Assembly: GCA_026705765.1 (NCBI GenBank)
Contig: JAPPAB010000106.1
Span: 624 to 64,623 of the forward strand
Length of the DNA stretch: 64,000 bases
Direction: 5' to 3'
Source: Gemmatimonadota bacterium
GTDB taxonomy: Bacteria > Latescibacterota > UBA2968
This document shows positions 4,333 to 61,836 of the stretch, piece by piece; positions within the stretch are counted from its first letter, which is position 1, and the number at the start of each line of letters is the position of its first letter. Made by a program: the position numbers and the translations under genes. The notes beneath the pieces were generated by a model that was not told the origin of the DNA, made no database searches, and worked only from the letters and a program-made list of their open reading frames with translations.

Positions 4333-4629
4333 ATGGATATTTACTACGAACTGCACAATATCACCTTTATCTGGGATGAAAATAAAGCTCGTACAAACTC
4401 AATAAAACACGATGGTGTAACTTTTGAGCAAGCTGCAGAAGCTTTCTTTGATCCCTTTTTAAAAGTGGTGGATGCGAGTCGTAGTGAAGAGGCCCGCGAT
4501 GCCGTTGTTGGGCTGGATACACGCTGGAATTTACTATTCGTTGTTCACATTGAAATACAAGATGATGAAATTCGGATCATTTCAGCCCGTAAAGCAACTC
4601 GAAGGGAAAGATTTGACTATGAAAATTGA
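4333..4629 (+). CDS. brnT: BrnT-family (DUF497) ribonuclease toxin
   Basis: 98 aa. FIWDENKARTNSIKHDGVTFEQAAEAFFDP ... RIISARKATRRER matches the BrnT signature. Overlaps the downstream antitoxin by 11 nt. Confidence 0.8.
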   Translation: MDIYYELHNITFIWDENKARTNSIKHDGVTFEQAAEAFFDPFLKVVDASRSEEARDAVVGLDTRWNLLFVVHIEIQDDEIRIISARKATRRERFDYEN

Positions 4630-4915
4630 CAAATTAAAAAATCGTCTGCGGAAAAACCGTCCTATGACGACCGTATCTATTCGGTTTCCCGAAGATGTTA
4701 TCGACGATCTAAAGCAAGTTGCACCAATGCTGGGATTCTCCGGATACCAACCACTTATTCGCGCTTACGTAGGTCAGGGCTTGCGTGTGGATCTTGAACG
4801 CTTAGATCAGGAGATCCTACCTGCTTTGGTCAATAACCTAAAAAAACGCGGTATCAGTGAAGCACTAATCACCGAAGCTTTGGCAGAAGCAAACCAAGCA
4901 CCAAAACCGCAATAA
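4619..4915 (+). CDS. brnA: BrnA-like antitoxin (CopG/RHH-type)
   Basis: Internal ATG of the 4472 ORF, in frame (MKIDKLKNRLRKNRPMTTVSIRFPEDVIDDLKQ...), translationally coupled to brnT. Typical BrnA placement and size. Confidence 0.7.
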   Translation: MKIDKLKNRLRKNRPMTTVSIRFPEDVIDDLKQVAPMLGFSGYQPLIRAYVGQGLRVDLERLDQEILPALVNNLKKRGISEALITEALAEANQAPKPQ

Positions 4916-4975: not shown

Positions 4976-6265
4976 TTATTTTATCTCATCCAAACGCGCA
5001 CGAAACCCGGGCAAAAGAGCTGTGACCACGGCGGTTGCAACCAGGGCGACACTGGTGTGCAAACCGAGGGCAATAGGCGCGCCATAAACTTCGGTGAGTT
5101 TGCCAATTTGCAGGCTACCAAGCGGTCCTGCGCCAATGGCGAGGACAAGTGTACCCATAGCGCGATCTCTCATATCATCGCGAGCAGCGATAAGCATAAT
5201 TGAGCTTTGCATCACACTGAAAAATGCATGCCCAATGCCGGCAAGTATGAGGAGAAAGATGGCGAGTGGAAAAGCAACCTGCGTGCCGAACAGGGTAAGC
5301 GCACCAACCCAGGACGTGCTAAAGGCAAAGACAAACAGCGCAAGAGACTGGAAAAGCGATCCAGCGGAAAATATCCAGCCGCGACTGAGGCGCGAGCGCA
5401 ACACACTGACCGCGTAAAGGCCAAAAAACGCCCCAATACCATTGCACGCGCCCAGCACACCGTATTCAAGTGGCCCCTTGTGAAGAATATCGTGTGTAAA
5501 AATGGGCAGGATGGTCTGGTAGGGAAACGCCAGAAAATTCATGATCACAGTAATGAGCAGCGTACCCATAATCGGCTGGCTGGTACGTATGTATTGCAAG
5601 CCTTCGCGCATCAGCGTCCACGGAGAGGTTTTGAGAATCGCGGGGTGACGCGGCACTTTGACGCCCAGCATGATCAGAAATGAGATAAGGGAGATGAAAA
5701 AAATAGTGATATAACAGTCCAATACGCCAAATAAAGCGTAAATATATCCGCTTAAAAAAGGCCCAATCATGCGAGCGATATTTTGGGTAAAGCTTTCGAG
5801 CATCATCGCTTCAACCGTGCGCTGCTTGCTTACCAGATCGGGTACCAGAGCGCGACGAGCAGTCCAATTAAGAGACCACGAGGTGCCAAATAACACTGCG
5901 CCAATCGCGAGATGCCAGACTGCCAGTTGGTTGGTCCAGAGCAGCAGGATAATGGCTGCGAGAACCAGTACGCTGAGCCATTGCGAGAAAATCACGATGC
6001 GAACGCGCCCAACGCTATTGATCAATGGCCCGGCGATAAAACCGATGAGCAACAGGGGAATAGATCGGTAAAAGCCAATCAGTGCGACCTCAAACGCAGA
6101 GTGGGTAATCTCAAAAACGAGCCATCCCACGACAATCATTTCCATCCACATGGCCTGCCACCAGAGCATATTGCTCAAGATCAGGTAGCGAAAGCCGCGA
6201 TTGCCCAGGGGGGCAAGGGACCCTCGAAAGGAGATGACAAATTTTCCCGTTCTTCTAATGCGCAT
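4976..6265 (-). CDS. MFS transporter
   Basis: 429-aa polytopic ORF with about 12 hydrophobic segments and MFS-like loop motifs (GPLINSVGRVRIV). Confidence 0.75.
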   Translation of the reverse strand: MRIRRTGKFVISFRGSLAPLGNRGFRYLILSNMLWWQAMWMEMIVVGWLVFEITHSAFEVALIGFYRSIPLLLIGFIAGPLINSVGRVRIVIFSQWLSVLVLAAIILLLWTNQLAVWHLAIGAVLFGTSWSLNWTARRALVPDLVSKQRTVEAMMLESFTQNIARMIGPFLSGYIYALFGVLDCYITIFFISLISFLIMLGVKVPRHPAILKTSPWTLMREGLQYIRTSQPIMGTLLITVIMNFLAFPYQTILPIFTHDILHKGPLEYGVLGACNGIGAFFGLYAVSVLRSRLSRGWIFSAGSLFQSLALFVFAFSTSWVGALTLFGTQVAFPLAIFLLILAGIGHAFFSVMQSSIMLIAARDDMRDRAMGTLVLAIGAGPLGSLQIGKLTEVYGAPIALGLHTSVALVATAVVTALLPGFRARLDEIK

Positions 6266-6331
6266 GGTCGAGTTTCAAATCCAATCTTCATAGCGCGGAG
6301 AATGTCGTCTATCGCTATAGCCTCTGCTCTT

Positions 6332-6904
6332 TTACCGCCCAATCTCAAAATCGCGCGCCACTGCCCTTGCCATCGTCACGAGTACATCGTCGTCAATGCG
6401 CACGCGATAATTGGGATTAATATATTGAAATTGGATCTTGCGATTGGGTGCAATCACAAAGAGCGATGGTACGGGCAAAGAGCGTTTTCTGTTATTCACA
6501 AACGCAACGCCATAAGCCTTTGCTGCCTCAAATTCCACATCAGATAATAACGCAAAATCGAGACCCACGCGATCGCGCACCTCAGCCAATTTTTCAGGCG
6601 GATCGGGCGCAATAGCAATAATTTCAAAACCCAAACTATCCAACTGTGACTTCAGTTCCTGCAGTTGTCCCAACTGCCGTCGGCAATGCGGTCACCAGTA
6701 TCCCCGATAAAAAATCAAAATCGTCGGTTTTTTGTGTGTGCCCAGGTCAAAATCTCGTCCATTCGCATCGACGAGTGTCAGCGAGGGAACTTCATCGCCA
6801 ACCATCAAGGGACGCACCTTATTCGGCGCATCGGGCAATTGCGCGTGCCCCCATCCAAAAGTACCAAACACTACCAGCAACGCAATCCAGATTATTTTCT
6901 TCAT
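6332..6904 (-). CDS. Thioredoxin-fold redoxin (AhpC/TSA or thiol-disulfide oxidoreductase-like), candidate selenoprotein with in-frame UGA at 6692-6694
   Basis: ORFs 6692..6904 and 6332..6673 are in the same frame and separated only by TGA. The joined product reads ...KPTILIFYRGYW-[TGA]-PHCRRQLGQLQELK.... The TGA sits exactly where the first Cys of the redoxin WCPxC motif is expected. Signal-peptide-like N-terminus. A GCAGUUG-GGA-CAACUGC hairpin starts about 15 nt after the UGA. Confidence 0.5.
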
Positions 6905-6918
6905 AAAAATCTCCTATA

Positions 6919-8418
6919 TTACAATGAAAGAATCTTCTCGATCTTCCCCGGCTGTGCCCAGTTGCATTTTCCCTCTCCGTTGAGTTGTCTCAACAACGTG
7001 GGAATACCCGGATGGTGAAGCGCAGAACAAATTCGCCTGGCATCAGCCTCATCCCAACAAGGGATAAACGCCTGCATCGCTTGATTCGCCTGCCATATCT
7101 GCCCATCTCTGCTATTTAAGATCACAGGATGGAAATCACTCTTGCCATAAGCCTCCCAAATCACCTTGTAAGGTGCAAAAGAATACGGGCCGACACCGAG
7201 CAGTGACCACCAGACACCTTTGGCAATAGCTGACCGGATCAAAGTACCTTTCCGACTCTCCAGTTTGTCTCTAACCTCAATGAGATATTGTCTGAGATCG
7301 GCATATTGCTCAATACTGGTCCACGAAAGCGGTCGTCCTGTATCTCTATCATACGGAAGCAGAATCCATTTATGCGGGACCATATCCCCATTTTTCCATA
7401 TCTCCTTTGTCGCAAGCGGAAAGAGAAATTCCTCAGGCAGATGCGTTGGTTTATCCTCGAACATAAAAATCGCATTCGCACCACACGTATTTACGCCCTG
7501 GCGCGGTTTCTGATCAGAAGATAGTTCGACTTTGATGGCACCAAGATCAGCAGTGTCTCCGCGTTTAAGAACGCGCCATTGATCGTCAGATGCCTTTAGA
7601 GGAACCGCACGGTGTTCGATCCACCCCCCTCCCCGCTCTCTGAAATATCTGACGGGGAATCTGTGCGGCACATCCATGCGAAACCTGGCGCAGCAATAAG
7701 ATGTACCTACCCCTTCAAACACCTCTGTCGCCGTAAATTCACAGACTTCATCTACCTCAAATCTCCGACCATTGGCAACATAGTCCCTGAACCCTTTGTG
7801 GGCATCACCGCCCGAAAAAAGAGAAAGTGGGAGAAAGAAACACCCTATCCCATTCCCACGCAGCAATTTGCCCAGTACGACCTTCAAAACCAAAGCCGCT
7901 ATATCGGTGCGCGAGGAACCGAGAAGAACCTGTTTCTTATCGGGAACAAGACCTTCTGCTTCAAAATAAGGCTTGAGTCTCTCCTTATATGAATCAGACA
8001 AATCCGTAAAATTTGCCCACGGCGGATTGCCAAACAAAATGTCGTAATCGGTATTTGGAGGATCTGTAATCACATCTAATGCGAGAAGTTGCGATGAGGG
8101 AAAATCAATCGCGAATTTCCGATACGCTTTAAGTTGAAATGCCTGAAGATGTGACGTATGGACCTCGATCAACGTCAGGCGCGAAAGAAGCTCTGGCGAT
8201 ACCCGAATACCTCTCGATCTGGCGAGACGGAACAGTGCGAGCGCGAAAGCGCCCTGTCCCGCAGCCGGGTCACAAACAGACGCCCCATCAATCCACGCAT
8301 CGAAAATACCCCACCGCTCGATAAGCCATTCTGCCCATTTAATCGGAGTAAAAACCTGCCCGACCTCAACACTGTGTGAACTGCTTATAGACATACTTCT
8401 CAACCCATTCCAGTGCAA
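6919..8418 (-). CDS. Gamma-class N6-adenine DNA methyltransferase (Eco57I/TaqI-like) with C-terminal target-recognition region
   Basis: Motif I VCDPAAGQGAF precedes motif IV FGNPPW, the gamma-class order. 499 aa. The true start may be the internal MSISSS. Confidence 0.8.
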   Translation of the reverse strand: MHWNGLRSMSISSSHSVEVGQVFTPIKWAEWLIERWGIFDAWIDGASVCDPAAGQGAFALALFRLARSRGIRVSPELLSRLTLIEVHTSHLQAFQLKAYRKFAIDFPSSQLLALDVITDPPNTDYDILFGNPPWANFTDLSDSYKERLKPYFEAEGLVPDKKQVLLGSSRTDIAALVLKVVLGKLLRGNGIGCFFLPLSLFSGGDAHKGFRDYVANGRRFEVDEVCEFTATEVFEGVGTSYCCARFRMDVPHRFPVRYFRERGGGWIEHRAVPLKASDDQWRVLKRGDTADLGAIKVELSSDQKPRQGVNTCGANAIFMFEDKPTHLPEEFLFPLATKEIWKNGDMVPHKWILLPYDRDTGRPLSWTSIEQYADLRQYLIEVRDKLESRKGTLIRSAIAKGVWWSLLGVGPYSFAPYKVIWEAYGKSDFHPVILNSRDGQIWQANQAMQAFIPCWDEADARRICSALHHPGIPTLLRQLNGEGKCNWAQPGKIEKILSL

Positions 8419-8636
8419 TTAATTATGCCAATCACCTGACGAACTTTCTTCAACGCAACCAGATACTGACTTTGGATCCATATCTTCTTTGAAATCACAT
8501 ATCGCATTTATACACATTTGTTTGTCAAAATTCAACCCGATTATACCCGCCTGACAAACACCTGTCAACCGATTTGTGTCAATGAGACGCGGGAATATAC
8601 TATTGGTTATTTTTAATCCGTTCAATTAAAAAAGAC

Positions 8637-12862: not shown

Positions 12863-13978
12863 ATGGATATTATCCTCCACTTATTGCTGCTCTCTACAGT
12901 CCTCTACACCCTCGTCGCACTGTGTTTTTTTTTCGGATTATTCCGCCTGAACAATCAGCCGCGCACTGATGAAACGCCATTTATATCCATCGTTATTGCC
13001 GCGCGCAATGAAGCGGACTATATCGGTCTGTGCCTCGAATCCCTGAAACAACAGATCTATCCATCCGACAGATTTGAAATCCTCGTCGTTGACGACGACT
13101 CGATAGATAATACATCCCAAGTCGTCGCCTCTATGCGCCTGGACAACCTCCACCTTTTGTCTGTCGATAACAGCTTTCCAGAAATGACGGCAAAAAAACG
13201 ACCGATGTCCGTTGGCATTCACCATGCGAGGGGTGAATGGATTCTCACGACCGATGCCGACTGCACAGTGCCACCCACCTGGATCGCCAGCATGGCGTCT
13301 TATATGGCGGCTGATATTGGCATTGTCATTGGTTTTTCGCAACTTACATCGCGCTCGTTTTTCGGCCGATTGCAGGCTTATGATTTTCTCACCCTCATGG
13401 CCGCAGCTGCCGGTGCCGCGGGGACAGGCATCCCCCTGGCTGCTTCGGGACAAAATTTTGCCTATCGCAAAGGTCTTTTTGAAAAAGTCGGCGGTTTCCA
13501 CGACATCGCACACCGCCCATCTGGCGACGATGTGCTATTGCTCCAATTGCTGCGCCGAGCATGGGATGGACGCATCGCGTTTGCCGCTGATCCCGGCGCA
13601 TTTGCAACCACCCATCGCCCCGAAACGCCACCATCGTTCTGGCAGCAACGCAAGCGATGGGCATCTAACGCCGCGTATCAACTGCGTCTCAACCCCATTT
13701 TTTTTTCCTATATTGCAGTGGTATTTTTGACCAACGCGCTCATTCCCACTGCTTTTCTCATCTCAATAATAGATAGTACATACACCCTGCCCCTGACCTG
13801 CTGGGGTGCAAAAATACTGGTGGATCTGCTCGTAGTGGGAAAAGGTGTTTATACCTTCAAGCGTGCGGATCTACTCATCATGTTTCCCCTTTGGGAGATC
13901 TTACAAATCCCCTACACCATTCTCATCGGCCTCGCGGGAACCCTGCGCGGATTTACGTGGAAAGGTCGAGATCATTGA
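12863..13978 (+). CDS. Membrane-embedded family 2 glycosyltransferase (paralog of 10698 ORF, with QxxRW-like motif)
   Basis: ISIVIAARNEADYIGLCL...ILVVDDDSIDNT...TDADC, plus WQQRKRW (QxxRW). C-terminal TM helices ending ...EILQIPYTILIGLAGTLRGFTWKGR, mirroring the first GT2 tail. Confidence 0.7.
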   Translation: MDIILHLLLLSTVLYTLVALCFFFGLFRLNNQPRTDETPFISIVIAARNEADYIGLCLESLKQQIYPSDRFEILVVDDDSIDNTSQVVASMRLDNLHLLSVDNSFPEMTAKKRPMSVGIHHARGEWILTTDADCTVPPTWIASMASYMAADIGIVIGFSQLTSRSFFGRLQAYDFLTLMAAAAGAAGTGIPLAASGQNFAYRKGLFEKVGGFHDIAHRPSGDDVLLLQLLRRAWDGRIAFAADPGAFATTHRPETPPSFWQQRKRWASNAAYQLRLNPIFFSYIAVVFLTNALIPTAFLISIIDSTYTLPLTCWGAKILVDLLVVGKGVYTFKRADLLIMFPLWEILQIPYTILIGLAGTLRGFTWKGRDH

Positions 13979-57305: not shown

Positions 57306-58034
57306 TCACCTTCCGATAATCACATTGACCAGGGCGCCGGGGCGGACATACTTTCCCGCATTCAAAAAAAGACCCGTTACTTTGCACGTCCCATTTTCCG
57401 GATCAATTATGGGACTGATCCCGACGACGCGCCCGAGCAACGCGCGCTTTCCCCCGGCGGTCATCACGGCAGACAGCGGCATATTCTTATAGATCGCGTT
57501 CAGCATGTCCTCGGACACAAGCAGATGCACCTGAAGGTCCATATGGTCGATCACCCGCGCGACCGCGGTGTAAGCCAGTATCCAGTCGCCTGCCTTTACA
57601 TTGACCTCGACCACCATCCCGTCCTGGGGTGCGATGATCGCGGTTCTGTCCAGTTCCATGCGCGCGGTGACCCAGTTGCAGTGCGCGACCTCGGCATCAA
57701 AGCGGACATTCTCAAGCTGCTGGTCACTGATCAGTTTCTTATCGTGCAACATTTCCCAGCGCGCTTTCAGGGTCTGGGCCTTCTTCAATGCAATTCGAGC
57801 TGCTGCTTCCTTCACGCGCAGATCTCGGCGGATTAATACCATAAGGGTATCCCCTTTGACCACCCGGTCTCCCACCTCAAAGTTGACCTGCTGCATCCGC
57901 GCGTTCATCCCGGCATAGACCGTCGCCGACCGCGCAGGTACTAAAGGTGCTCTCAATATCAGTTCTTGTGCATTGCCCCTTGCGGCAATGAGCATGAGGA
58001 ACAGGCCGCACAGAAACATCGCGTTGTATATCAT
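57306..58034 (-). CDS. HlyD-family membrane-fusion/periplasmic adaptor-like protein
   Basis: Signal/TM N-terminus, biotin-lipoyl-like hairpin (VVKGDTLMVL ... IIAPQDGMVVEVNV) and beta-barrel segment. 4-nt overlap with the upstream gene. Confidence 0.6.
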   Translation of the reverse strand: MIYNAMFLCGLFLMLIAARGNAQELILRAPLVPARSATVYAGMNARMQQVNFEVGDRVVKGDTLMVLIRRDLRVKEAAARIALKKAQTLKARWEMLHDKKLISDQQLENVRFDAEVAHCNWVTARMELDRTAIIAPQDGMVVEVNVKAGDWILAYTAVARVIDHMDLQVHLLVSEDMLNAIYKNMPLSAVMTAGGKRALLGRVVGISPIIDPENGTCKVTGLFLNAGKYVRPGALVNVIIGR

Positions 58035-59224
58035 AGTTGGTCTCCTGTCAGACGAATACGTAACACACCCCTGAATCGCACGTTTTTGCGTTTCAGGGCC
58101 TCGATCTCTTTCTGCTTTTCCGCCAGTTCTTTCTCAATTTCCCACCGTTTCAGGTAGTGAACAGGCGGATAAGCCATTTTCAGGTCCTCCAGTTTTTCAA
58201 AAGCCTCTTGCTTCTGCCTTGACAAATCTTTTACGCGCTCAGTGAGACCTCTTAAAACGGGCCGAAACCGCGAAACCTCCTTTTTTTGCGCAAATTTGAA
58301 TTCAATCTCCCGAGTAGTGAAACGGACAGCACCGCCCAGACGTTCTTCCTCTCCAACTTCAAAAGAAGCATCTGCCTCAAGCAGCCCAGATACAAAACTG
58401 TTTACGGGAATCCGTTCCACCATCTCCTGATAGGTCTCGCCTTTCAACCGGATCGTCTGTATTCTCACGGGGCGATCCGTCTCCTCCACGCGCACCTTAT
58501 CCGGCAAAATAGCGCCGTGTTCTCCGCATGTCAGAACTCGCCCATTGAAAAAGATCCAGAACCACGCGGGTCTCGCATCGAGGATCAGGGCTTTTCCACT
58601 CACCTTCTCCCGCGTGTGTCGCCATTGTCCTTCAAAATTCAAATAGGTTTCTGTATTGGCTCTCCGATAATCTGAGTATGCGGCCGAAGGCGTCGCCATC
58701 AGGTATCTAAATGATCGCCAGATACCGCCCTTATGTGATACGGGCATGAACGCCACGAGCAGTATGACAACCACAGCCAATACAGTACCCTCCCCCATAA
58801 GGGATCCGGTTTTGACCCTGTATTTCGCGCTGCCGGGAAATACACAAACCGCGGGATGGGGATAAAACAAGGGCACGCCGCTTTTGGTCGTACTATCGGC
58901 GATCAAGTGGCTCATATAGCCCAGGAGTATGGCCGCATAACACGCGGTGTCCCAGGCGAGTAAGGGCAAAGTGACAACCGATAGCGCAAGCACACAGAGC
59001 AGCGAATGCGTAATCGAGCGATGCCCCCACCGCCGCTCAATCGGGATGGAAGCAAAGGGCATCGCCCGACCAATAGAACTTCTCGGCGAATCCACATCCG
59101 GAAGCAGGCTCCCTATGATCGCGCATGCGACCGCGGGAAGATTGCGGTGAAAGGACAAGGAAAAGAGCGAAAAGGATCCCGCTACCGTGAGCAGCCCAAA
59201 TGCAATATGTGTAGGTGCAGTCAT
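58031..59224 (-). CDS. Membrane-bound metal-dependent hydrolase (YdjM/DUF457-like) N-terminal domain fused to a C-terminal coiled-coil region
   Basis: N-terminal about 170 aa polytopic with HRSITHS and SHLIADS His motifs. C-terminal about 200 aa charged and heptad-rich (EALKRKNVRFRGVLR...). Confidence 0.55.
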   Translation of the reverse strand: MTAPTHIAFGLLTVAGSFSLFSLSFHRNLPAVACAIIGSLLPDVDSPRSSIGRAMPFASIPIERRWGHRSITHSLLCVLALSVVTLPLLAWDTACYAAILLGYMSHLIADSTTKSGVPLFYPHPAVCVFPGSAKYRVKTGSLMGEGTVLAVVVILLVAFMPVSHKGGIWRSFRYLMATPSAAYSDYRRANTETYLNFEGQWRHTREKVSGKALILDARPAWFWIFFNGRVLTCGEHGAILPDKVRVEETDRPVRIQTIRLKGETYQEMVERIPVNSFVSGLLEADASFEVGEEERLGGAVRFTTREIEFKFAQKKEVSRFRPVLRGLTERVKDLSRQKQEAFEKLEDLKMAYPPVHYLKRWEIEKELAEKQKEIEALKRKNVRFRGVLRIRLTGDQL

Positions 59225-60780
59225 CGTTTGAACCTGTACATAAAGAATCGAATGCCTACAAGAATCGCGCTGCCAATACCCGCCAGCACATAGCCCTCCA
59301 TACTCCCGATACCGCGCATGAAGAATCGCGCCGCGACCACGAATAGGAGAATCAGCACCACGGCGAACGTGAGATCGATCTGATCTCGCGCGCCCGTGTG
59401 GGACACATCCCTGACCGCGGATCGGGTTACCGCCGGTTCTTTGCGAAGCCGTTCCACAATCTCAATAATGGCGCGCGGATTGCCAGCACTCTGTTGTAAT
59501 ACCCGAGTCTCGGTCATGGCGTAGTCTTCTATGTCGGCGCCCGCGGCGCACTGGCGGATCAGCTTCTTGGCGTCCTCGGTAGATAGGTGCTCTACTTCTA
59601 CGCATTCGAACTTCCAGAAGTATTTCTCGTAAGGCTTCCGGACTTCTGGTAGAGCAGCAATAATGGTAAACTTGCGGTTGAGTTTGTCGATTAATCGCCC
59701 GACGGAGGCGGTCATATCCGACAGGTCATCCACGATCAACACGAACTCGTTTCTCTCAACTGAGCCGAGCACCATATCGGTCCAGCCCTGAATGCTCGTG
59801 CGGGTGTGTTGCTTTTTGATCGTTTCAAAGTTGTCTGGACCATCCGGACATAGCCTTCCGATTTTGTGCAACCCCTCCGCAATATTTATCAGGTTCTCTT
59901 TCACTGGTGAAAGCGTCTTTACCTTCAGTGCGTTCTCTGCGTCGAGTAGCGCGAGCAAATGGCTTTTGCCCACGCCGATTGGACCAACGACCAGGGTATC
60001 AATACCCTTGCTCAAGTTGCCTGTGAGCTGGCACAATTCCTCATCGCGTCCCACTGTCTTTCCCATCCCGACCCTCGACCGCGCAAAGAATCTGTAATCG
60101 CGATTCTTCAGGCGCGACCACCACCGCGACAACCGCGATCTGCGGTCAATGCGATCAACAGAACGCCGCTTTTGCTCTTCACTAACAGAGATGTAAATGG
60201 ACGCCGCCTCAATGGACGCATGCCCCATCAAGTCCTTGATCCGCTCAACCGGCACATCCCGATCTGCGAGGTCTGTGCCGAAGGTGTGCCTGAGCATGTG
60301 CGGATGGACGTGGCGGATCCCCGCGCGCTGGGCGCAGGTCTTCAGGGCTGCCCACACGGTCTTGCGGCTGAGACGCTGTCCGTTGCGGAGATTGCAAAAG
60401 ACGTATTCAGAATCCGAAAACCGACGGGACTCCAGCCATTCTCGGAGCACATCCTGCACCTCGGGGTTCATCGGGACAACGCGCTCTTTGCCACGCTTAT
60501 CCGCAAAGCGAAGGCTCGGTGTGTCCGTTGACCAGTGGATATTGTCAACCGTGAGTGAACACGCTTCGGATACGCGCAGACCACACATCGAGAGCACGGC
60601 AATGAGCGCGCGATCACGCGAATTCATGCGTACGGATTTGAGTGCTTCAAGCTCGTGTTGCGCGAGCGCTTTTGGTACTGCTGGACGGGTTACAAGTGAC
60701 TGGTGAACCATGGAAATACCCTCCTGTATGGGTTGGAATTGAAACTTCGTGCCCTTCAAATAGTGCAAAAATCGTGCCAA
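59221..60780 (-). CDS. Fusion protein: tyrosine-recombinase catalytic domain (no core-binding domain), P-loop ATPase, and C-terminal two-helix membrane anchor
   Basis: Box I LSMCGLRVSEACSL. Box II HPHMLRHTFGTDLA. MGHASIEAASIYISV gives the R-H-R-H-Y pentad. Then Walker A VVGPIGVGKSHL and Walker B FVLIVDDL. C-terminal hydrophobic helices FAVVLILLFVVAARFF / VLAGIGSAILVGIRFF. The likely true start is MVHQSL at 60711. Confidence 0.7.
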   Translation of the reverse strand: MARFLHYLKGTKFQFQPIQEGISMVHQSLVTRPAVPKALAQHELEALKSVRMNSRDRALIAVLSMCGLRVSEACSLTVDNIHWSTDTPSLRFADKRGKERVVPMNPEVQDVLREWLESRRFSDSEYVFCNLRNGQRLSRKTVWAALKTCAQRAGIRHVHPHMLRHTFGTDLADRDVPVERIKDLMGHASIEAASIYISVSEEQKRRSVDRIDRRSRLSRWWSRLKNRDYRFFARSRVGMGKTVGRDEELCQLTGNLSKGIDTLVVGPIGVGKSHLLALLDAENALKVKTLSPVKENLINIAEGLHKIGRLCPDGPDNFETIKKQHTRTSIQGWTDMVLGSVERNEFVLIVDDLSDMTASVGRLIDKLNRKFTIIAALPEVRKPYEKYFWKFECVEVEHLSTEDAKKLIRQCAAGADIEDYAMTETRVLQQSAGNPRAIIEIVERLRKEPAVTRSAVRDVSHTGARDQIDLTFAVVLILLFVVAARFFMRGIGSMEGYVLAGIGSAILVGIRFFMYRFKR

Positions 60781-60856
60781 AATTTGCCCAAAATCCCGTA
60801 ACTGATTGCAGGAGAGTATGTTTTTAAAAAATGCCCAAAAATGGACATGCGAAAAA

Positions 60857-60919
60857 GTGTTTCAAATGAAACAGTTGGTGTTTCAAATGAAACAGTAAGT
60901 GTTTCAAACGAAACAGTTT
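60857..60919. repeat. Three tandem 21-bp direct repeats, each an imperfect palindrome (GTGTTTCAAATGAAACAGTnn)
   Basis: gtgtttcaaatgaaacagttg / gtgtttcaaatgaaacagtaa / gtgtttcaaacgaaacagttt read directly. Lies 77-140 bp upstream of the recombinase-ATPase ORF. Confidence 0.8.
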
Positions 60920-60962
60920 GATTAGAATTAAATAAGTGGACTATTAGGGATATTACACAAAA

Positions 60963-60990
60963 AAAGCCCTGAAGAACACAGGGCATTTTG
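60963..60990 (-). terminator. Rho-independent terminator for the RelE/XRE operon (minus strand)
   Basis: Minus-strand reading GCCCTGtgttcttCAGGGC followed by TTTTTTT. Confidence 0.5.
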
Positions 60991-61138
60991 GAGGATATTT
61001 ATGGTAATGATGCTCGGATTAGCACTATACTGGAAATGTCGCGATCATCCGGGGCAGGGGACCAGCGGATGCAATAACTAAAACAAAACGACTTTCTGTT
61101 AATTGAAATGTTATACACCAAAACAGGTCAAGTCCAAT

Positions 61139-61465
61139 TTAGCGAGATGATACTGTTTCTTGCAGAGGATGAAAAGAAATTCGAATCTGTTTATGTAATG
61201 CGGCGGCGATTCGCCGTAGCATAGCCAGTGAGTGCCCTTCGTAGTCTGCATTTTCAAGTCTGCAGATGACAGATGCCGATGTCCCAACCTTTTTTGCCAA
61301 TTCTCGTTGGGACAGTCCAGACTCGATTCTGATCTGGTAAAGTTGGGCAGCAACTTCGGCGTGTATTCTTTCTGTTTTTAACAGGACTTCCATTTCCTGG
61401 TCGCCTTCAACATAGCGTTTGTGAAGAATCGCTACGGCATCGGTAGTTTTTTGTGTTTTCATCAA
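61139..61465 (-). CDS. XRE-family HTH antitoxin
   Basis: SGLSQRELAKKVGTSASVICRLEN helix-turn-helix. 4-nt overlap with the upstream toxin gene. Confidence 0.7.
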   Translation of the reverse strand: MMKTQKTTDAVAILHKRYVEGDQEMEVLLKTERIHAEVAAQLYQIRIESGLSQRELAKKVGTSASVICRLENADYEGHSLAMLRRIAAALHKQIRISFHPLQETVSSR

Positions 61466-61836
61466 TCATTCTCCAGCGAATAGGTGTGTCGCCCGGGGTT
61501 CTGTTCAAAGTTTCTTTTTCTTTGAATTGCGAGGTTAATTTCTGTGGAAGGCACGCGCTGTTCTTTAACAATACCGTGTGAAATCACAGTGGCATTACGT
61601 CCCCAAAAAAAGTAAAGAAGCCGATATTGAATGCCGCGATAAGCGATGCGAAGCTCATAGATGTCGTCTCTCAAGTAATCAGATTCGGGCCTCCGAAGTT
61701 CATGACCTAATTTTTGGAGTCGTTCAATTTTCACGATACATTTGGCTTTGACTTTAGGAAGGAGTGCGTCAAGCCAGGCGAGAACTGGAACGTTTCCATT
61801 CGTTTCTTGATAGAATATGACCTGGATTTCCGGCAT
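61462..61836 (-). CDS. RelE/ParE-superfamily toxin (Gp49/HigB-like)
   Basis: 124 aa. IFYQETNGNVPVLAWLDAL ... DIYELRIAYRGIQYRLLYFF matches the Gp49-like addiction-module killer family. Confidence 0.7.
   Translation of the reverse strand: MPEIQVIFYQETNGNVPVLAWLDALLPKVKAKCIVKIERLQKLGHELRRPESDYLRDDIYELRIAYRGIQYRLLYFFWGRNATVISHGIVKEQRVPSTEINLAIQRKRNFEQNPGRHTYSLEND

What the first reader, a model, noticed from the sequence alone, without database searches (positions are those of the whole stretch)
6332..6904. In-frame TGA at the CxxC cysteine of a redoxin: candidate selenoprotein (UxxC)
Two track ORFs (6692..6904 and 6332..6673, minus strand) are one reading frame interrupted only by TGA. The joined product reads ...ILIFYRGYW-[UGA]-PHCRRQLG.... 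The UGA therefore falls exactly where the thioredoxin-fold WCPxC motif has its first, resolving Cys. That is the classic position for Sec in redoxin, Prx-like and thiol-disulfide oxidoreductase selenoproteins. TGA is a normal stop elsewhere in the window (for example brnT), so a recoded genetic code is unlikely. A GCAGUUG-GGA-CAACUGC hairpin begins about 15 nt downstream of the UGA and could be part of a bacterial SECIS. No selA/selB/selD genes are visible in the window.
Basis: partly seen in the sequence, partly recalled or inferred. Interest (0 to 1): 0.6.

Follow-up and report, generated by a model that had tools for sequence, protein, structure and literature searches.

The report
Missed selenocysteine redoxin gene in Latescibacterota
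One gene for an exported thioredoxin-fold redox protein has a selenocysteine-coding UGA in place of its first active-site cysteine, so gene callers split it in two; it is very probably real, but it belongs to a selenoprotein type known for about twenty years.

Summary
Window 6904..6332 (minus strand) is one 190-codon AhpC/TSA-redoxin frame with a single TGA at 6694..6692, reading FYRGYW-UGA-PHC.

- **Conservation:** All 17 Candidatus Latescibacterota species genomes retrieved keep this TGA. dN/dS is about 0.17-0.19 on both sides of it.
- **Cys homologues:** All 140 distant homologues checked have Cys at that position.
- **SECIS hairpin:** GCAGUUG-GGA-CAACUGC at 6677..6661 meets the published bacterial SECIS model. 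It has a 7-bp stem, a 3-nt loop starting with G, and 21 nt between UGA and loop. It contains most of the gene's longest invariant DNA run. Third codon positions vary at 0 of 6 sites there, against 113 of 161 elsewhere.
- **Second clade:** A separate clade of the same family, whose only named members are Acidobacteria/Bryobacteraceae MAGs, carries TGA plus a hairpin at the same spacing. Three of its seven base pairs change in a compensatory way.
- **Genetic code:** TGA is an ordinary stop elsewhere in the window.

The verdict is a genuine UxxC "Prx-like" thiol:disulfide oxidoreductase selenoprotein, probably exported. It sits in a conserved three-gene array.

selA, selB, selD and tRNA-Sec could not be searched in the rest of the genome. 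This is a new member of a known kind, of low to moderate interest.

The parts
6332..6904 (-). Complete selenoprotein gene: 190 codons plus a TAA stop. It is an AhpC/TSA-redoxin (thioredoxin fold) with a UxxC active site.
   Evidence: Searches show the single frame. Pfam AhpC-TSA 8.1e-27 (94 bits, cut-off 26) and Redoxin 2.6e-19, with the domain spanning residues 35-159, across the TGA; dN/dS 0.185 for codons 1-70 and 0.168 for codons 72-190 among 18 orthologues.
6692..6694 (-). Sec codon UGA (codon 71), replacing the N-terminal nucleophilic Cys of the W-C-P-x-C motif.
   Evidence: TGA is present in all 23 Latescibacterota-type sequences retrieved (17 species genomes, 5 metagenome contigs and the window). 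TGC or TGT is present in all 140 distant homologues.
6683..6685 (-). TGC codon for Cys74, the second (resolving) Cys of the UxxC motif.
   Evidence: translation. It is invariant in all homologues except one (L149, Ser). In the Bcp alignment it aligns with the peroxidatic Cys position.
6661..6677 (-). Bacterial SECIS core: a 7-bp stem GCAGUUG/CAACUGC with apical loop GGA. The loop starts 21 nt after the UGA.
   Evidence: the bSECIS model criteria are met; the same hairpin occurs in 24 of 24 TGA-bearing sequences. Only 1 of 140 Cys homologues has any comparable hairpin; 1 of 17 columns is variable against 197 of 487 elsewhere (p = 0.004), and 0 of 6 third positions are variable against 113 of 161 (p = 0.0009); 95% of cells are paired, 3 of 7 pairs are compensatory, and 0 of 500 shuffles reach the observed score.
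6842..6904 (-). Signal-peptide-like N-terminus MKKIIWIALLVVFGTFGWGHA|Q, which predicts export to the periplasm.
   Evidence: Read directly from the sequence: a KK n-region, a 15-residue hydrophobic core and a G-H-A before Gln22. This is inference only; no signal-peptide predictor was available.
6911..6915 (-). Shine-Dalgarno AGGAG, 6 nt upstream of the ATG at 6904.
   Evidence: sequence. No comparable site precedes the TTG at 6673, which gene callers use as the start of the 113-aa fragment. That TTG lies inside the SECIS stem.
6919..8418 (-). Upstream neighbour: a 499-aa protein with an NPPW motif. It may be a DNA or other N-methyltransferase and ends 15 nt before the redoxin start.
   Evidence: Eco57I methylase 1.8e-4 (22.1 bits, below the 25.3 cut-off); adjacent in all 17 Latescibacterota genomes.
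4976..6265 (-). Downstream neighbour: an MFS_3 family transporter (gene callers start it at 6145).
   Evidence: MFS_3 7.6e-37; same order and strand in all 17 genomes.
8540..8568 (-). Promoter-like site TTGACA-17-TATAAT (12 of 12) upstream of the three-gene array.
   Evidence: This is a consensus match only. The count of such sites in the region is not above the shuffled expectation.

Best explanation
Window 6904..6332 (minus strand) is one gene for an exported thioredoxin-fold thiol:disulfide oxidoreductase of the AhpC/TSA 'Prx-like' type. Its attacking active-site cysteine is replaced by selenocysteine, giving the motif W-U-P-H-C.

Proposed mechanism. The ribosome starts at the ATG at 6904, which follows an AGGAG site. 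At UGA 6694..6692 the 17-nt hairpin 14 nt downstream (loop GGA, 21 nt from the UGA) acts as a bacterial SECIS. It recruits SelB carrying GTP and Sec-tRNA(Sec), Sec is inserted, and translation continues to the TAA at 6332. The N-terminal signal peptide then takes the 190-residue product across the membrane. There Sec71 and Cys74 cycle between selenol/thiol and selenenylsulfide to reduce or exchange disulfides, or possibly peroxide-type substrates.

What is shown:
- a single frame;
- a TGA conserved across 17 other species;
- purifying selection on both halves;
- Cys in the homologues;
- a conserved and covarying hairpin that fits the bSECIS model;
- normal use of TGA as a stop elsewhere in the window.

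What is inferred: SelB/tRNA-Sec decoding itself, export, the redox chemistry, and co-transcription with the methyltransferase-like and MFS genes.
For: - **Frame and domain:**. The Pfam AhpC-TSA domain covers residues 35-159 and runs across the TGA.
- **Conservation:** all 17 Candidatus Latescibacterota species genomes (77-95% aa identity, several of them complete chromosomes) have TGA at the same codon with no other frame disruption. Mean dN/dS is 0.185 upstream and 0.168 downstream, with dS up to about 0.9 for the most distant pairs.
- **Database entries:** all 37 close entries are 107-113-aa fragments. No source has annotated the full protein. Gene callers emit 70-aa plus 113-aa ORFs.
- **Cys/Sec pairing:** 140 of 140 distant homologues have Cys.
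- **bSECIS criteria** (PMC13188914): loop of 3-9 nt, stem of 4-16 bp, G in the first two loop positions, 16-37 nt spacing, MFE <= -7.5. Here the values are a 3-nt loop GGA, 7 bp and 21 nt. Energies are -7.4 for the bare hairpin, -8.8 with flanks and -12.6 for the extended fold.
- **Synonymous-site protection:** dS is 0.17 in codons 72-87 against 0.33-0.41 elsewhere. Third positions vary at 0 of 6 sites against 113 of 161 (p = 9e-4), and the gene's longest invariant run (13 nt) falls on the hairpin. The only change in the stem, A to G in L012, keeps a G-U pair.
- **Second Sec clade:** the only hits carrying an organism name are two MAGs labelled Acidobacteria bacterium and Bryobacteraceae bacterium. 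All 8 DNA sequences examined have UGA plus a hairpin at the same spacing. Pair 4 switches G-C/A-U, pair 5 U-A/C-G and pair 7 G-C/C-G. Overall 95.2% of cells are paired, 0 of 500 shuffles reach the covariation score, and slid controls give 16-41% paired.
- **Genetic code:** TGA terminates 16 of 43 long ORFs in the window.
Against: - **Sec machinery not seen.** There is no tRNA-Sec and no SelA, SelB or SelD in the 64-kb window. They are also missing from the 8.3 kb beyond its right edge, about 3.7 kb of the roughly 9.7 kb beyond its left edge, and every fetched locus. The rest of the genome could not be searched.
- **No literature link.** The searchable literature does not connect Latescibacterota with selenocysteine use.
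- **Weak thermodynamic signal.** The 71-nt region is no more stable than shuffles (z = -0.29), and the bare hairpin is -7.4 against a model threshold of -7.5.
- **Hairpin partly a by-product of coding.** The codons for Q-L-x-x-L are self-complementary. The four Cys-form loci fetched with the same QL(V/I)EL peptide (three distinct sequences, L172-L175) already form 5-6 of the 7 pairs, and one of them (L173) folds at -6.5.
- **No Rfam match.** No Rfam family matches the region. That is expected for bacterial SECIS elements.
- **Sampling bias.** The scan pattern IFYRGYWC favoured Cys-containing distant homologues.
Confidence: 0.9

Rival explanations
1. UGA read-through without selenocysteine. The organism lacks the Sec pathway, and the UGA is either decoded at low level by a near-cognate tRNA (Trp or Cys) or acts as a regulated termination site. 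The hairpin would serve only as a read-through stimulator or pause site.
For: No Sec machinery was found in any sequence that could be examined. No publication links the phylum with Sec.
Against: The UGA sits at the catalytic Cys column, where only Cys or Sec would give an active enzyme. The hairpin has the geometry and loop G of the SelB-dependent bSECIS model. The same arrangement recurs in a separate clade of the family whose named members are Acidobacteria MAGs. About 82 kb of a roughly 6-Mb genome says almost nothing about whether the sel genes are absent.
Confidence: 0.05
2. Two separate small genes (a split redoxin): a 70-aa secreted peptide and a 113-aa cytoplasmic fragment, translated independently, as the gene callers annotate them.
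For: Every automatic annotation reports two ORFs.
Against: The split would cut the thioredoxin fold inside its active-site motif. The six codons PHCRRQ between the TGA and the called TTG start are invariant at the protein level in all 18 sequences, although they would be non-coding under this model. The called starts differ between relatives, giving fragments of 107-127 aa. No Shine-Dalgarno site precedes the TTG, which lies inside the hairpin stem.
Confidence: 0.02
3. Pseudogene or sequencing/assembly error that turned TGC or TGT into TGA.
For: A single base change from TGC or TGT gives TGA. The window comes from a short-read metagenome assembly.
Against: TGA is present in 17 independent species-level genomes, including complete chromosome-level assemblies, and in 5 further metagenome contigs. 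There are no other stops or frameshifts, and dN/dS is about 0.17-0.19 on both sides.
Confidence: 0.01
4. Genome-wide reassignment of TGA to Trp or Gly (genetic code 4 or 25), so that residue 71 is Trp or Gly.
For: Three JGI-called relatives are translated with W at this position, FYRGYWWPYC.
Against: TGA ends 16 of 43 long ORFs in the window, in proportion with TAA and TAG, and many of these ORFs abut the next gene. No other coding frame in the window has a convincing internal TGA. Trp or Gly at the catalytic Cys column would inactivate the motif.
Confidence: 0.01

Closest known systems
Prx-like (pfam00578) UxxC thiol:disulfide oxidoreductase selenoproteins. They are listed as 'Prx-like 1' in the GOS selenoproteome (PMC2398784) and as 'Prx-like thiol:disulfide oxidoreductase, PF00578, UxxC/UxxU' in the 2026 review PMC13188914.
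   Same: PF00578 domain. Sec replaces the first Cys of a CxxC motif. Cys-containing homologues are abundant. The bSECIS lies immediately downstream in the coding region. Function has been predicted but not tested.
   Different: No direct sequence comparison with the family's reference protein (WP_010940744.1) could be made. This clade is in Candidatus Latescibacterota, a phylum the searchable literature does not link with Sec. It carries a signal peptide and sits in a conserved methyltransferase-like / redoxin / MFS array.
ResA/TlpA-type extracytoplasmic thiol-disulfide oxidoreductases (for example B. subtilis ResA; the matched PDB chain 3c71 reads WCPHC).
   Same: Thioredoxin fold, a W-C-P-H-C type motif, an aligned P-x-P cis-proline loop before beta-3, and an N-terminal export or anchor segment (E = 2.8e-9).
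   Different: The first Cys is Sec. The NCBIfam ResA model scores 44.6 against a cut-off of 170. There is no cytochrome c maturation context.
Bcp/PrxQ peroxiredoxins (for example PDB 2cx3, deposited as bacterioferritin comigratory protein / thiol peroxidase).
   Same: Best solved-structure match (4.6e-12, residues 35-184). Cys74 aligns with the peroxidatic Cys.
   Different: The Prx signature PxxxT/SxxC is replaced by RGYW-U-PH-C, so Pro becomes Arg and Thr/Ser becomes Sec. The conserved catalytic Arg aligns with Pro. The NCBIfam thiol peroxidase model scores 58.8 against a cut-off of 140.
E. coli fdhF SECIS. Its minimal element is a 17-nt upper stem-loop placed 11 nt after the UGA (own knowledge; Liu et al. 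1998).
   Same: A short stem-loop of 17 nt inside the coding sequence, just downstream of the UGA, with G in the apical loop.
   Different: The sequence is different. The loop is 3 nt (GGA) rather than the fdhF loop with its bulged U. The distance to the UGA is 14 nt rather than 11. No lower stem is conserved; the GUCA partner of UGAC is lost in L016 and L017.

Membership tests
Bacterial selenoprotein gene (SelB/SECIS-decoded UGA) | The in-frame UGA aligns with a conserved, redox-active Cys in homologues (a Cys/Sec pair). | tested here: met
   140 of 140 distant homologues have Cys at the column; the column is the first Cys of the CxxC motif.
Bacterial selenoprotein gene (SelB/SECIS-decoded UGA) | The UGA is conserved in orthologues, with coding constraint both upstream and downstream. 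| tested here: met
   17 of 17 species genomes; dN/dS is 0.185 upstream and 0.168 downstream.
Bacterial selenoprotein gene (SelB/SECIS-decoded UGA) | [quoted passage not shown] | tested here: met
   loop GGA, 7 bp, 21 nt. Energy is -7.4 for the bare hairpin, -8.8 with flanks and -12.6 for the 48-nt fold. Searches show covariation and protection at synonymous sites. Caveat: Cys relatives with the same peptide form 5-6 of the 7 pairs.
Bacterial selenoprotein gene (SelB/SECIS-decoded UGA) | The genome encodes tRNA-Sec (selC), SelA, SelB and SelD. | not testable with these tools
   They are absent from the window, from the contig ends reached and from all fetched loci. The protein search lists only its best 120 hits and carries no searchable taxonomy, so Latescibacterota sel genes could not be retrieved.
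Bacterial selenoprotein gene (SelB/SECIS-decoded UGA) | Selenium is demonstrated in the protein (75Se labelling or mass spectrometry). | not testable with these tools
   This needs an experiment. The organism is uncultured.
Prx-like (pfam00578) UxxC thiol:disulfide oxidoreductase selenoprotein family | A PF00578 AhpC/TSA domain. | tested here: met
   8.1e-27, 94.1 bits against a cut-off of 26, covering profile positions 1-123 of 124.
Prx-like (pfam00578) UxxC thiol:disulfide oxidoreductase selenoprotein family | A UxxC redox motif where the Cys homologues have CxxC. | tested here: met
   W-U-P-H-C against W-C-P-x-C.
Prx-like (pfam00578) UxxC thiol:disulfide oxidoreductase selenoprotein family | Direct sequence relationship to the family's published reference sequences. 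| not tested
   The reference accession WP_010940744.1 could not be fetched with the tools.
Canonical peroxiredoxin (Bcp/PrxQ) | The active-site signature PxxxT/SxxC(p) plus the conserved catalytic Arg. | tested here: not met
   alignment to 2cx3: FFPAAFSPVC against FYRGYWUPHC, so Pro becomes Arg and Ser/Thr becomes Sec. The Arg of ...AKRAVFIV aligns with Pro of ...PVPSLFVI.
Canonical peroxiredoxin (Bcp/PrxQ) | The NCBIfam equivalog model score is above its cut-off. | tested here: not met
   NF006960 scores 58.8 bits against a cut-off of 140.
ResA/TlpA-type thiol-disulfide oxidoreductase | A WCxxC motif and a cis-Pro loop in a thioredoxin fold with an export signal. | tested here: met
   the match to the PDB ResA chain 3c71 includes W-C-P-H-C and P-x-P aligned with P-L-P. 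The signal-peptide-like N-terminus was read from the sequence without a dedicated predictor.
ResA/TlpA-type thiol-disulfide oxidoreductase | NCBIfam ResA or TlpA model score is above its cut-off. | tested here: not met
   ResA scores 44.6 against 170 and TlpA 29.8 against 230.
SelL-related redox protein (NF040769) | The model score is above its cut-off. | tested here: not met
   44.4 bits against a cut-off of 120.

The most novel reading that the evidence does not exclude
The FYRGYW-C/U-PxC redoxin family may be pre-adapted for repeated Cys-to-Sec conversion.

The conserved peptide Q-L-x-x-L just after the active site is encoded by self-complementary codons (CAR-YUG ... CAR/GAG-YUG). A near-SECIS hairpin therefore already sits 21 nt from the Cys codon in Cys forms; 5-6 of the 7 pairs are present in L172-L175.

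Two phylogenetically separate clades turned that same proto-hairpin into a working SECIS. One is the Latescibacterota clade. The named members of the other are Acidobacteria/Bryobacteraceae MAGs.

A corollary is that Candidatus Latescibacterota is a Sec-decoding phylum, which the searchable literature does not record.
Probability: 0.35. Interest if true: 0.45.

Novelty: new member of a known kind. Interest (0 to 1): 0.3.

Why it matters
**Annotation.** The gene is mis-annotated everywhere. All 37 close database entries are truncated fragments. In the related clade, 58 of the best 120 entries are truncated and three are translated with Trp at the UGA. Correcting these entries restores a conserved, probably periplasmic redox enzyme in a poorly known, uncultured phylum.

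**Physiology.** The result implies that these Latescibacterota need selenium and carry the Sec pathway.

**Evolution.** Two separate Sec clades place the hairpin in the same codons at the same spacing. This gives a small, testable case of how a coding sequence can supply the raw material for a SECIS.

**Mechanism.** Nothing here changes what is known about how selenocysteine is decoded.

Tried and rejected
**Rfam.** At its gathering cut-offs Rfam found only the window's tRNA-Phe. A permissive scan of 6450..6850 gave only chance-level snoZ6 and bxd_5 hits, and no SECIS family.

**Thermodynamics alone.** The 71-nt and 48-nt folds are not significantly more stable than shuffles (z = -0.29 and -0.76). 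The extended UGAC/GUCA lower stem is not conserved in L016 and L017, so only the 17-nt hairpin is claimed.

**Sec machinery.**
- E. coli SelA, SelB and SelD were taken from NC_000913.3 and run by tblastn against the window and all loci. They gave nothing.
- ARAGORN on all loci found no tRNA-Sec.
- The contig beyond the window's right edge holds a transposase, LRR/fn3 proteins and an arylsulfotransferase-like protein, with no sel genes.
- A 263-aa AIRS-domain ORF near the L167 Sec gene, in a MAG labelled Acidobacteria bacterium, looked like a possible SelD. It has a ThiL-like GIGDDCAV N-terminus and no GCxxK motif, so it was dropped.
- The third protein-database search was deliberately not spent on E. 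coli SelA or SelB. The tool lists only the best 120 hits, and these would all be enterobacterial.

**Literature.** Searches for Latescibacteria with selenocysteine, sel genes or selenium found only an incidental mention. The BSepDB paper has no supplement held as text.

**Other in-frame TGA genes in the window.** A scan of all TGA codons with at least 50 open codons on each side found no other candidate with a redox motif or a domain spanning the stop. The junctions at 13976, 40838 and 57306 look like ordinary gene boundaries.
Full report
**Observation.** The minus-strand sequence 6904..6332 translates as one 190-codon frame. Its only internal stop is TGA at 6694..6692 (codon 71), in the context ...KKPTILIFYRGYW-*-PHCRRQLGQLQELK.... 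The inverted repeat GCAGTTG-GGA-CAACTGC lies at 6677..6661 and starts 14 nt after the TGA. With Cys substituted at codon 71, the product matches Pfam AhpC-TSA (8.1e-27, 94 bits against a cut-off of 26) and Redoxin (2.6e-19). The domain covers residues 35-159, so it runs straight across the stop.

**Not an error, a pseudogene or a split gene.**
- A scan of one genome per species found 17 Candidatus Latescibacterota genomes encoding the whole 190-residue protein at 77-95% identity. Several are complete chromosome-level assemblies.
- Every one has TGA at the same codon and no other disruption. Five further metagenome contigs show the same.
- Among the 18 sequences, mean dN/dS is 0.185 for codons 1-70 and 0.168 for codons 72-190. 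dS reaches about 0.9 for the most distant pairs. Both halves are therefore maintained as coding sequence.
- The six codons PHCRRQ lie between the TGA and the TTG that gene callers take as the start of the second fragment. They are invariant at the protein level. That TTG lies inside the hairpin stem and has no Shine-Dalgarno site. The ATG at 6904 is preceded by AGGAG at a spacing of 6 nt.
- All 37 close entries in the protein database are 107-113-aa fragments. The source contig (ENA ERZ27276941 k141_40843, 82 kb) is annotated with separate 70-aa and 113-aa ORFs. No source has recognised the full-length gene.

**Cys/Sec pairing.** All 140 distant homologues recovered from genomes and metagenomes read FYRGYW-C-PxC at this column. 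They are mostly Bacteroidota and share 25-37% identity with the query. The scan pattern IFYRGYWC favoured such sequences, so this shows what the column is, not how frequent Sec is. The closest full-length Cys relatives are P0038 (about 44-48% identity) and P0040 (34%), which read GGWCPYC and GGWCPFC.

**SECIS.** The published bacterial consensus model asks for four things (PMC13188914):
- a 3-9-nt apical loop on a 4-16-bp stem;
- a G in one of the first two loop positions, usually followed by G or U;
- 16-37 nt between the UGA and the loop;
- MFE <= -7.5 kcal/mol.

The hairpin here has 7 bp, loop GGA and a 21-nt spacing. It folds at -7.4 for the bare 17-mer, -8.8 with two flanking nucleotides and -12.6 for the 48-nt fold. 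The 17-mer is far more stable than its shuffles (z = -4.2). The 71-nt region is not (z = -0.29), so thermodynamics alone would not have been decisive.

The comparative evidence carries the case:
- dS in codons 72-87 is 0.17, against 0.33-0.41 elsewhere.
- None of the six third-codon positions within the hairpin varies among 18 sequences, against 113 of 161 elsewhere (Fisher p = 9e-4).
- Only 1 of the 17 hairpin columns varies, against 197 of 487 elsewhere (p = 0.004).
- The longest invariant run in the gene (13 nt) lies on the hairpin.
- The one change, CAA to CGA in L012, is non-synonymous (Gln to Arg) and converts a U-A pair to U-G.

**A second Sec clade and covariation.** The metagenome scan found L127, which is 34% identical to the query and has FYRGYW-TGA-PYC. 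A protein search with L127 returned 120 listed hits. Of these, 58 are 107-127-aa truncations. Three JGI calls read W at the site, which is consistent with TGA having been translated as Trp; their DNA could not be obtained. The remaining 59 are full-length Cys forms. The only truncated hits with an organism name are MAGs labelled Acidobacteria bacterium and Bryobacteraceae bacterium.

DNA was obtained for seven more members. All have TGA followed, after the same 14 nt, by a hairpin of the form GCARCUN-GUY-GAGYUGC. On a gap-free alignment of nine distinct Sec-form sequences:
- 95.2% of cells are paired;
- three of the seven pairs change on both sides (G-C/A-U, C-G/U-A, C-G/G-C);
- 0 of 500 column shuffles reach the observed covariation score;
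- sliding the 3' arm by 1-3 nt drops pairing to 16-41%.

A bSECIS-like hairpin of -7.0 kcal/mol or better occurs in 24 of 24 TGA-bearing sequences. It occurs in only 1 of 140 Cys-bearing ones, and there at a different spacing.

**An honest control.** The stem is built from the codons of Q-L-x-x-L, which are self-complementary (CAG-UUG against CAA-CUG). The four Cys-form loci fetched from the L127-related clade have the same QL(V/I)EL peptide and represent three distinct sequences. They already form 5-6 of the 7 pairs, and one (L173) folds at -6.5. Part of the hairpin is therefore a by-product of the peptide. What distinguishes the Sec forms is complete pairing, with synonymous Gln and Leu codons chosen to match. 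A rough neighbour-joining tree without support values places the Latescibacterota Sec clade next to Cys form P0038. It places the L127-related Sec clade among other Cys forms. That suggests two separate Sec lineages using the same proto-hairpin.

**Genetic code and machinery.** TGA ends 16 of 43 long ORFs in the window, against 15 TAA and 12 TAG, often directly abutting the next gene. The BrnT-toxin gene (Pfam BrnT_toxin, mapping to window about 4333..4629) ends in TGA at 4627..4629. No other coding frame has a convincing internal TGA. A recoded genetic code is therefore excluded.

The window has one tRNA (Phe) and no tRNA-Sec. E. coli SelA, SelB and SelD find nothing in the window, in the contig ends reached or in any fetched locus. 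This covers only about 76 kb of the 82-kb contig, out of a genome of roughly 6 Mb. The tools left no way to search the rest, so the presence of the Sec pathway remains the one untested defining feature. The searchable literature does not mention Sec in this phylum.

**What the protein is.** The best solved-structure matches are Bcp/PrxQ (2cx3, 4.6e-12) and ResA (3c71, 2.8e-9).
- In the Bcp alignment, Cys74 takes the peroxidatic Cys position and Sec71 takes the Thr/Ser position. The Prx signature Pro is Arg, and the catalytic Arg aligns with Pro. It is therefore not a canonical peroxiredoxin.
- In the ResA alignment, W-U-P-H-C matches W-C-P-H-C and P-V-P matches the cis-Pro loop P-L-P.
- All NCBIfam models score far below their cut-offs: thiol peroxidase 58.8 against 140, ResA 44.6 against 170, SelL-related 44.4 against 120.
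- The N-terminus MKKIIWIALLVVFGTFGWGHA|Q looks like a cleavable signal peptide. This was read from the sequence and not run through a predictor.

The most likely function is a periplasmic thiol:disulfide oxidoreductase in which Sec71 attacks and Cys74 resolves.

**Context.** The gene sits 15 nt after a 499-aa protein that has an NPPW motif and sub-threshold methyltransferase hits. About 67 nt after the gene comes an MFS_3 transporter. This order holds in all 17 genomes. A perfect TTGACA-17-TATAAT lies upstream of the first gene. Co-transcription is inferred, not shown.

**Comparison and novelty.** Prx-like PF00578 proteins with UxxC are a long-established, abundant predicted selenoprotein family. 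The GOS data alone held 225 Sec sequences and 2,740 Cys homologues (PMC2398784), and the 2026 review lists the family as 'predicted with high confidence'. The finding is therefore a new member of a known kind: a correct catch of a gene that automatic annotation misses, in a phylum not previously linked with Sec. The only mildly new angle is that the SECIS is placed identically in two separate clades and that a near-SECIS exists in Cys relatives.

**Confidence and scores.** Confidence that this is a Sec-decoded selenoprotein gene is 0.9, and interest is 0.3.

Noticed in passing
window 4976..8568 (minus strand): A conserved three-gene array. A perfect sigma-70-like TTGACA-17-TATAAT lies at 8568..8540. 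It is followed by a 499-aa NPPW-motif protein with only sub-threshold Eco57I/N6_Mtase hits, then the Sec redoxin, then an MFS_3 transporter. The order is the same in all 17 Latescibacterota genomes. It is unclear why a methyltransferase-like protein would travel with an exported redoxin and an exporter.
   Followed up: partly
L127, L167-L171, L176, L177; proteins P0058-P0173: A large second clade of the same redoxin family carries TGA at the same codon and a covarying hairpin at the same spacing. Of the best 120 database hits to L127, 58 are truncated fragments. The only hits with an organism name are two MAGs labelled Acidobacteria bacterium and Bryobacteraceae bacterium.
   Followed up: yes
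L172 to L175 (Cys-form relatives): Cys-containing relatives with the same QL(V/I)EL peptide already form 5-6 of the 7 SECIS stem pairs, and L173 folds at -6.5 kcal/mol. The peptide's codons are self-complementary. This could be either a pre-adaptation for a SECIS or a relic of one.
   Followed up: partly
proteins P0056, P0057, P0123 (JGI gene calls): These relatives are recorded as FYRGYW-W-PYC (P0123: FYRGYW-W-LYC). This looks like TGA translated as Trp under an alternative code table, a different annotation error for what is probably the same Sec codon. The DNA could not be checked: for P0056 the sample file was too large, and P0057 and P0123 were not looked up.
   Followed up: partly
window about 4333..4915 (+): A BrnT toxin gene and an overlapping 98-aa partner that is probably BrnA. 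The brnT gene ends in TGA at 4627..4629.
   Followed up: no
L178 1..14258 (contig k141_40843, at and beyond the right edge of the window); window about 58031..61700: Signs of a mobile element: a DDE transposase at the contig end, a Gp49/HTH_3 toxin-antitoxin-like pair, a phage-type integrase fused to an AAA-like region, and a YdjM-family protein.
   Followed up: no
L167 4866..5657 (-): A 263-aa AIRS-domain ORF lies 1.5 kb from the L167 Sec redoxin gene and gives a weak SelD hit (29% identity, 1.5e-8). Its GIGDDCAV N-terminus, without a GCxxK motif, looks like ThiL and not SelD.
   Followed up: partly
proteins P0039 and P0043: Two database entries for close relatives are chimeric or frameshifted. 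P0043 fuses the end of the upstream 499-aa gene to the redoxin N-terminus. P0039 has a deletion that joins the redoxin to downstream sequence. Both are probably assembly errors.
   Followed up: no
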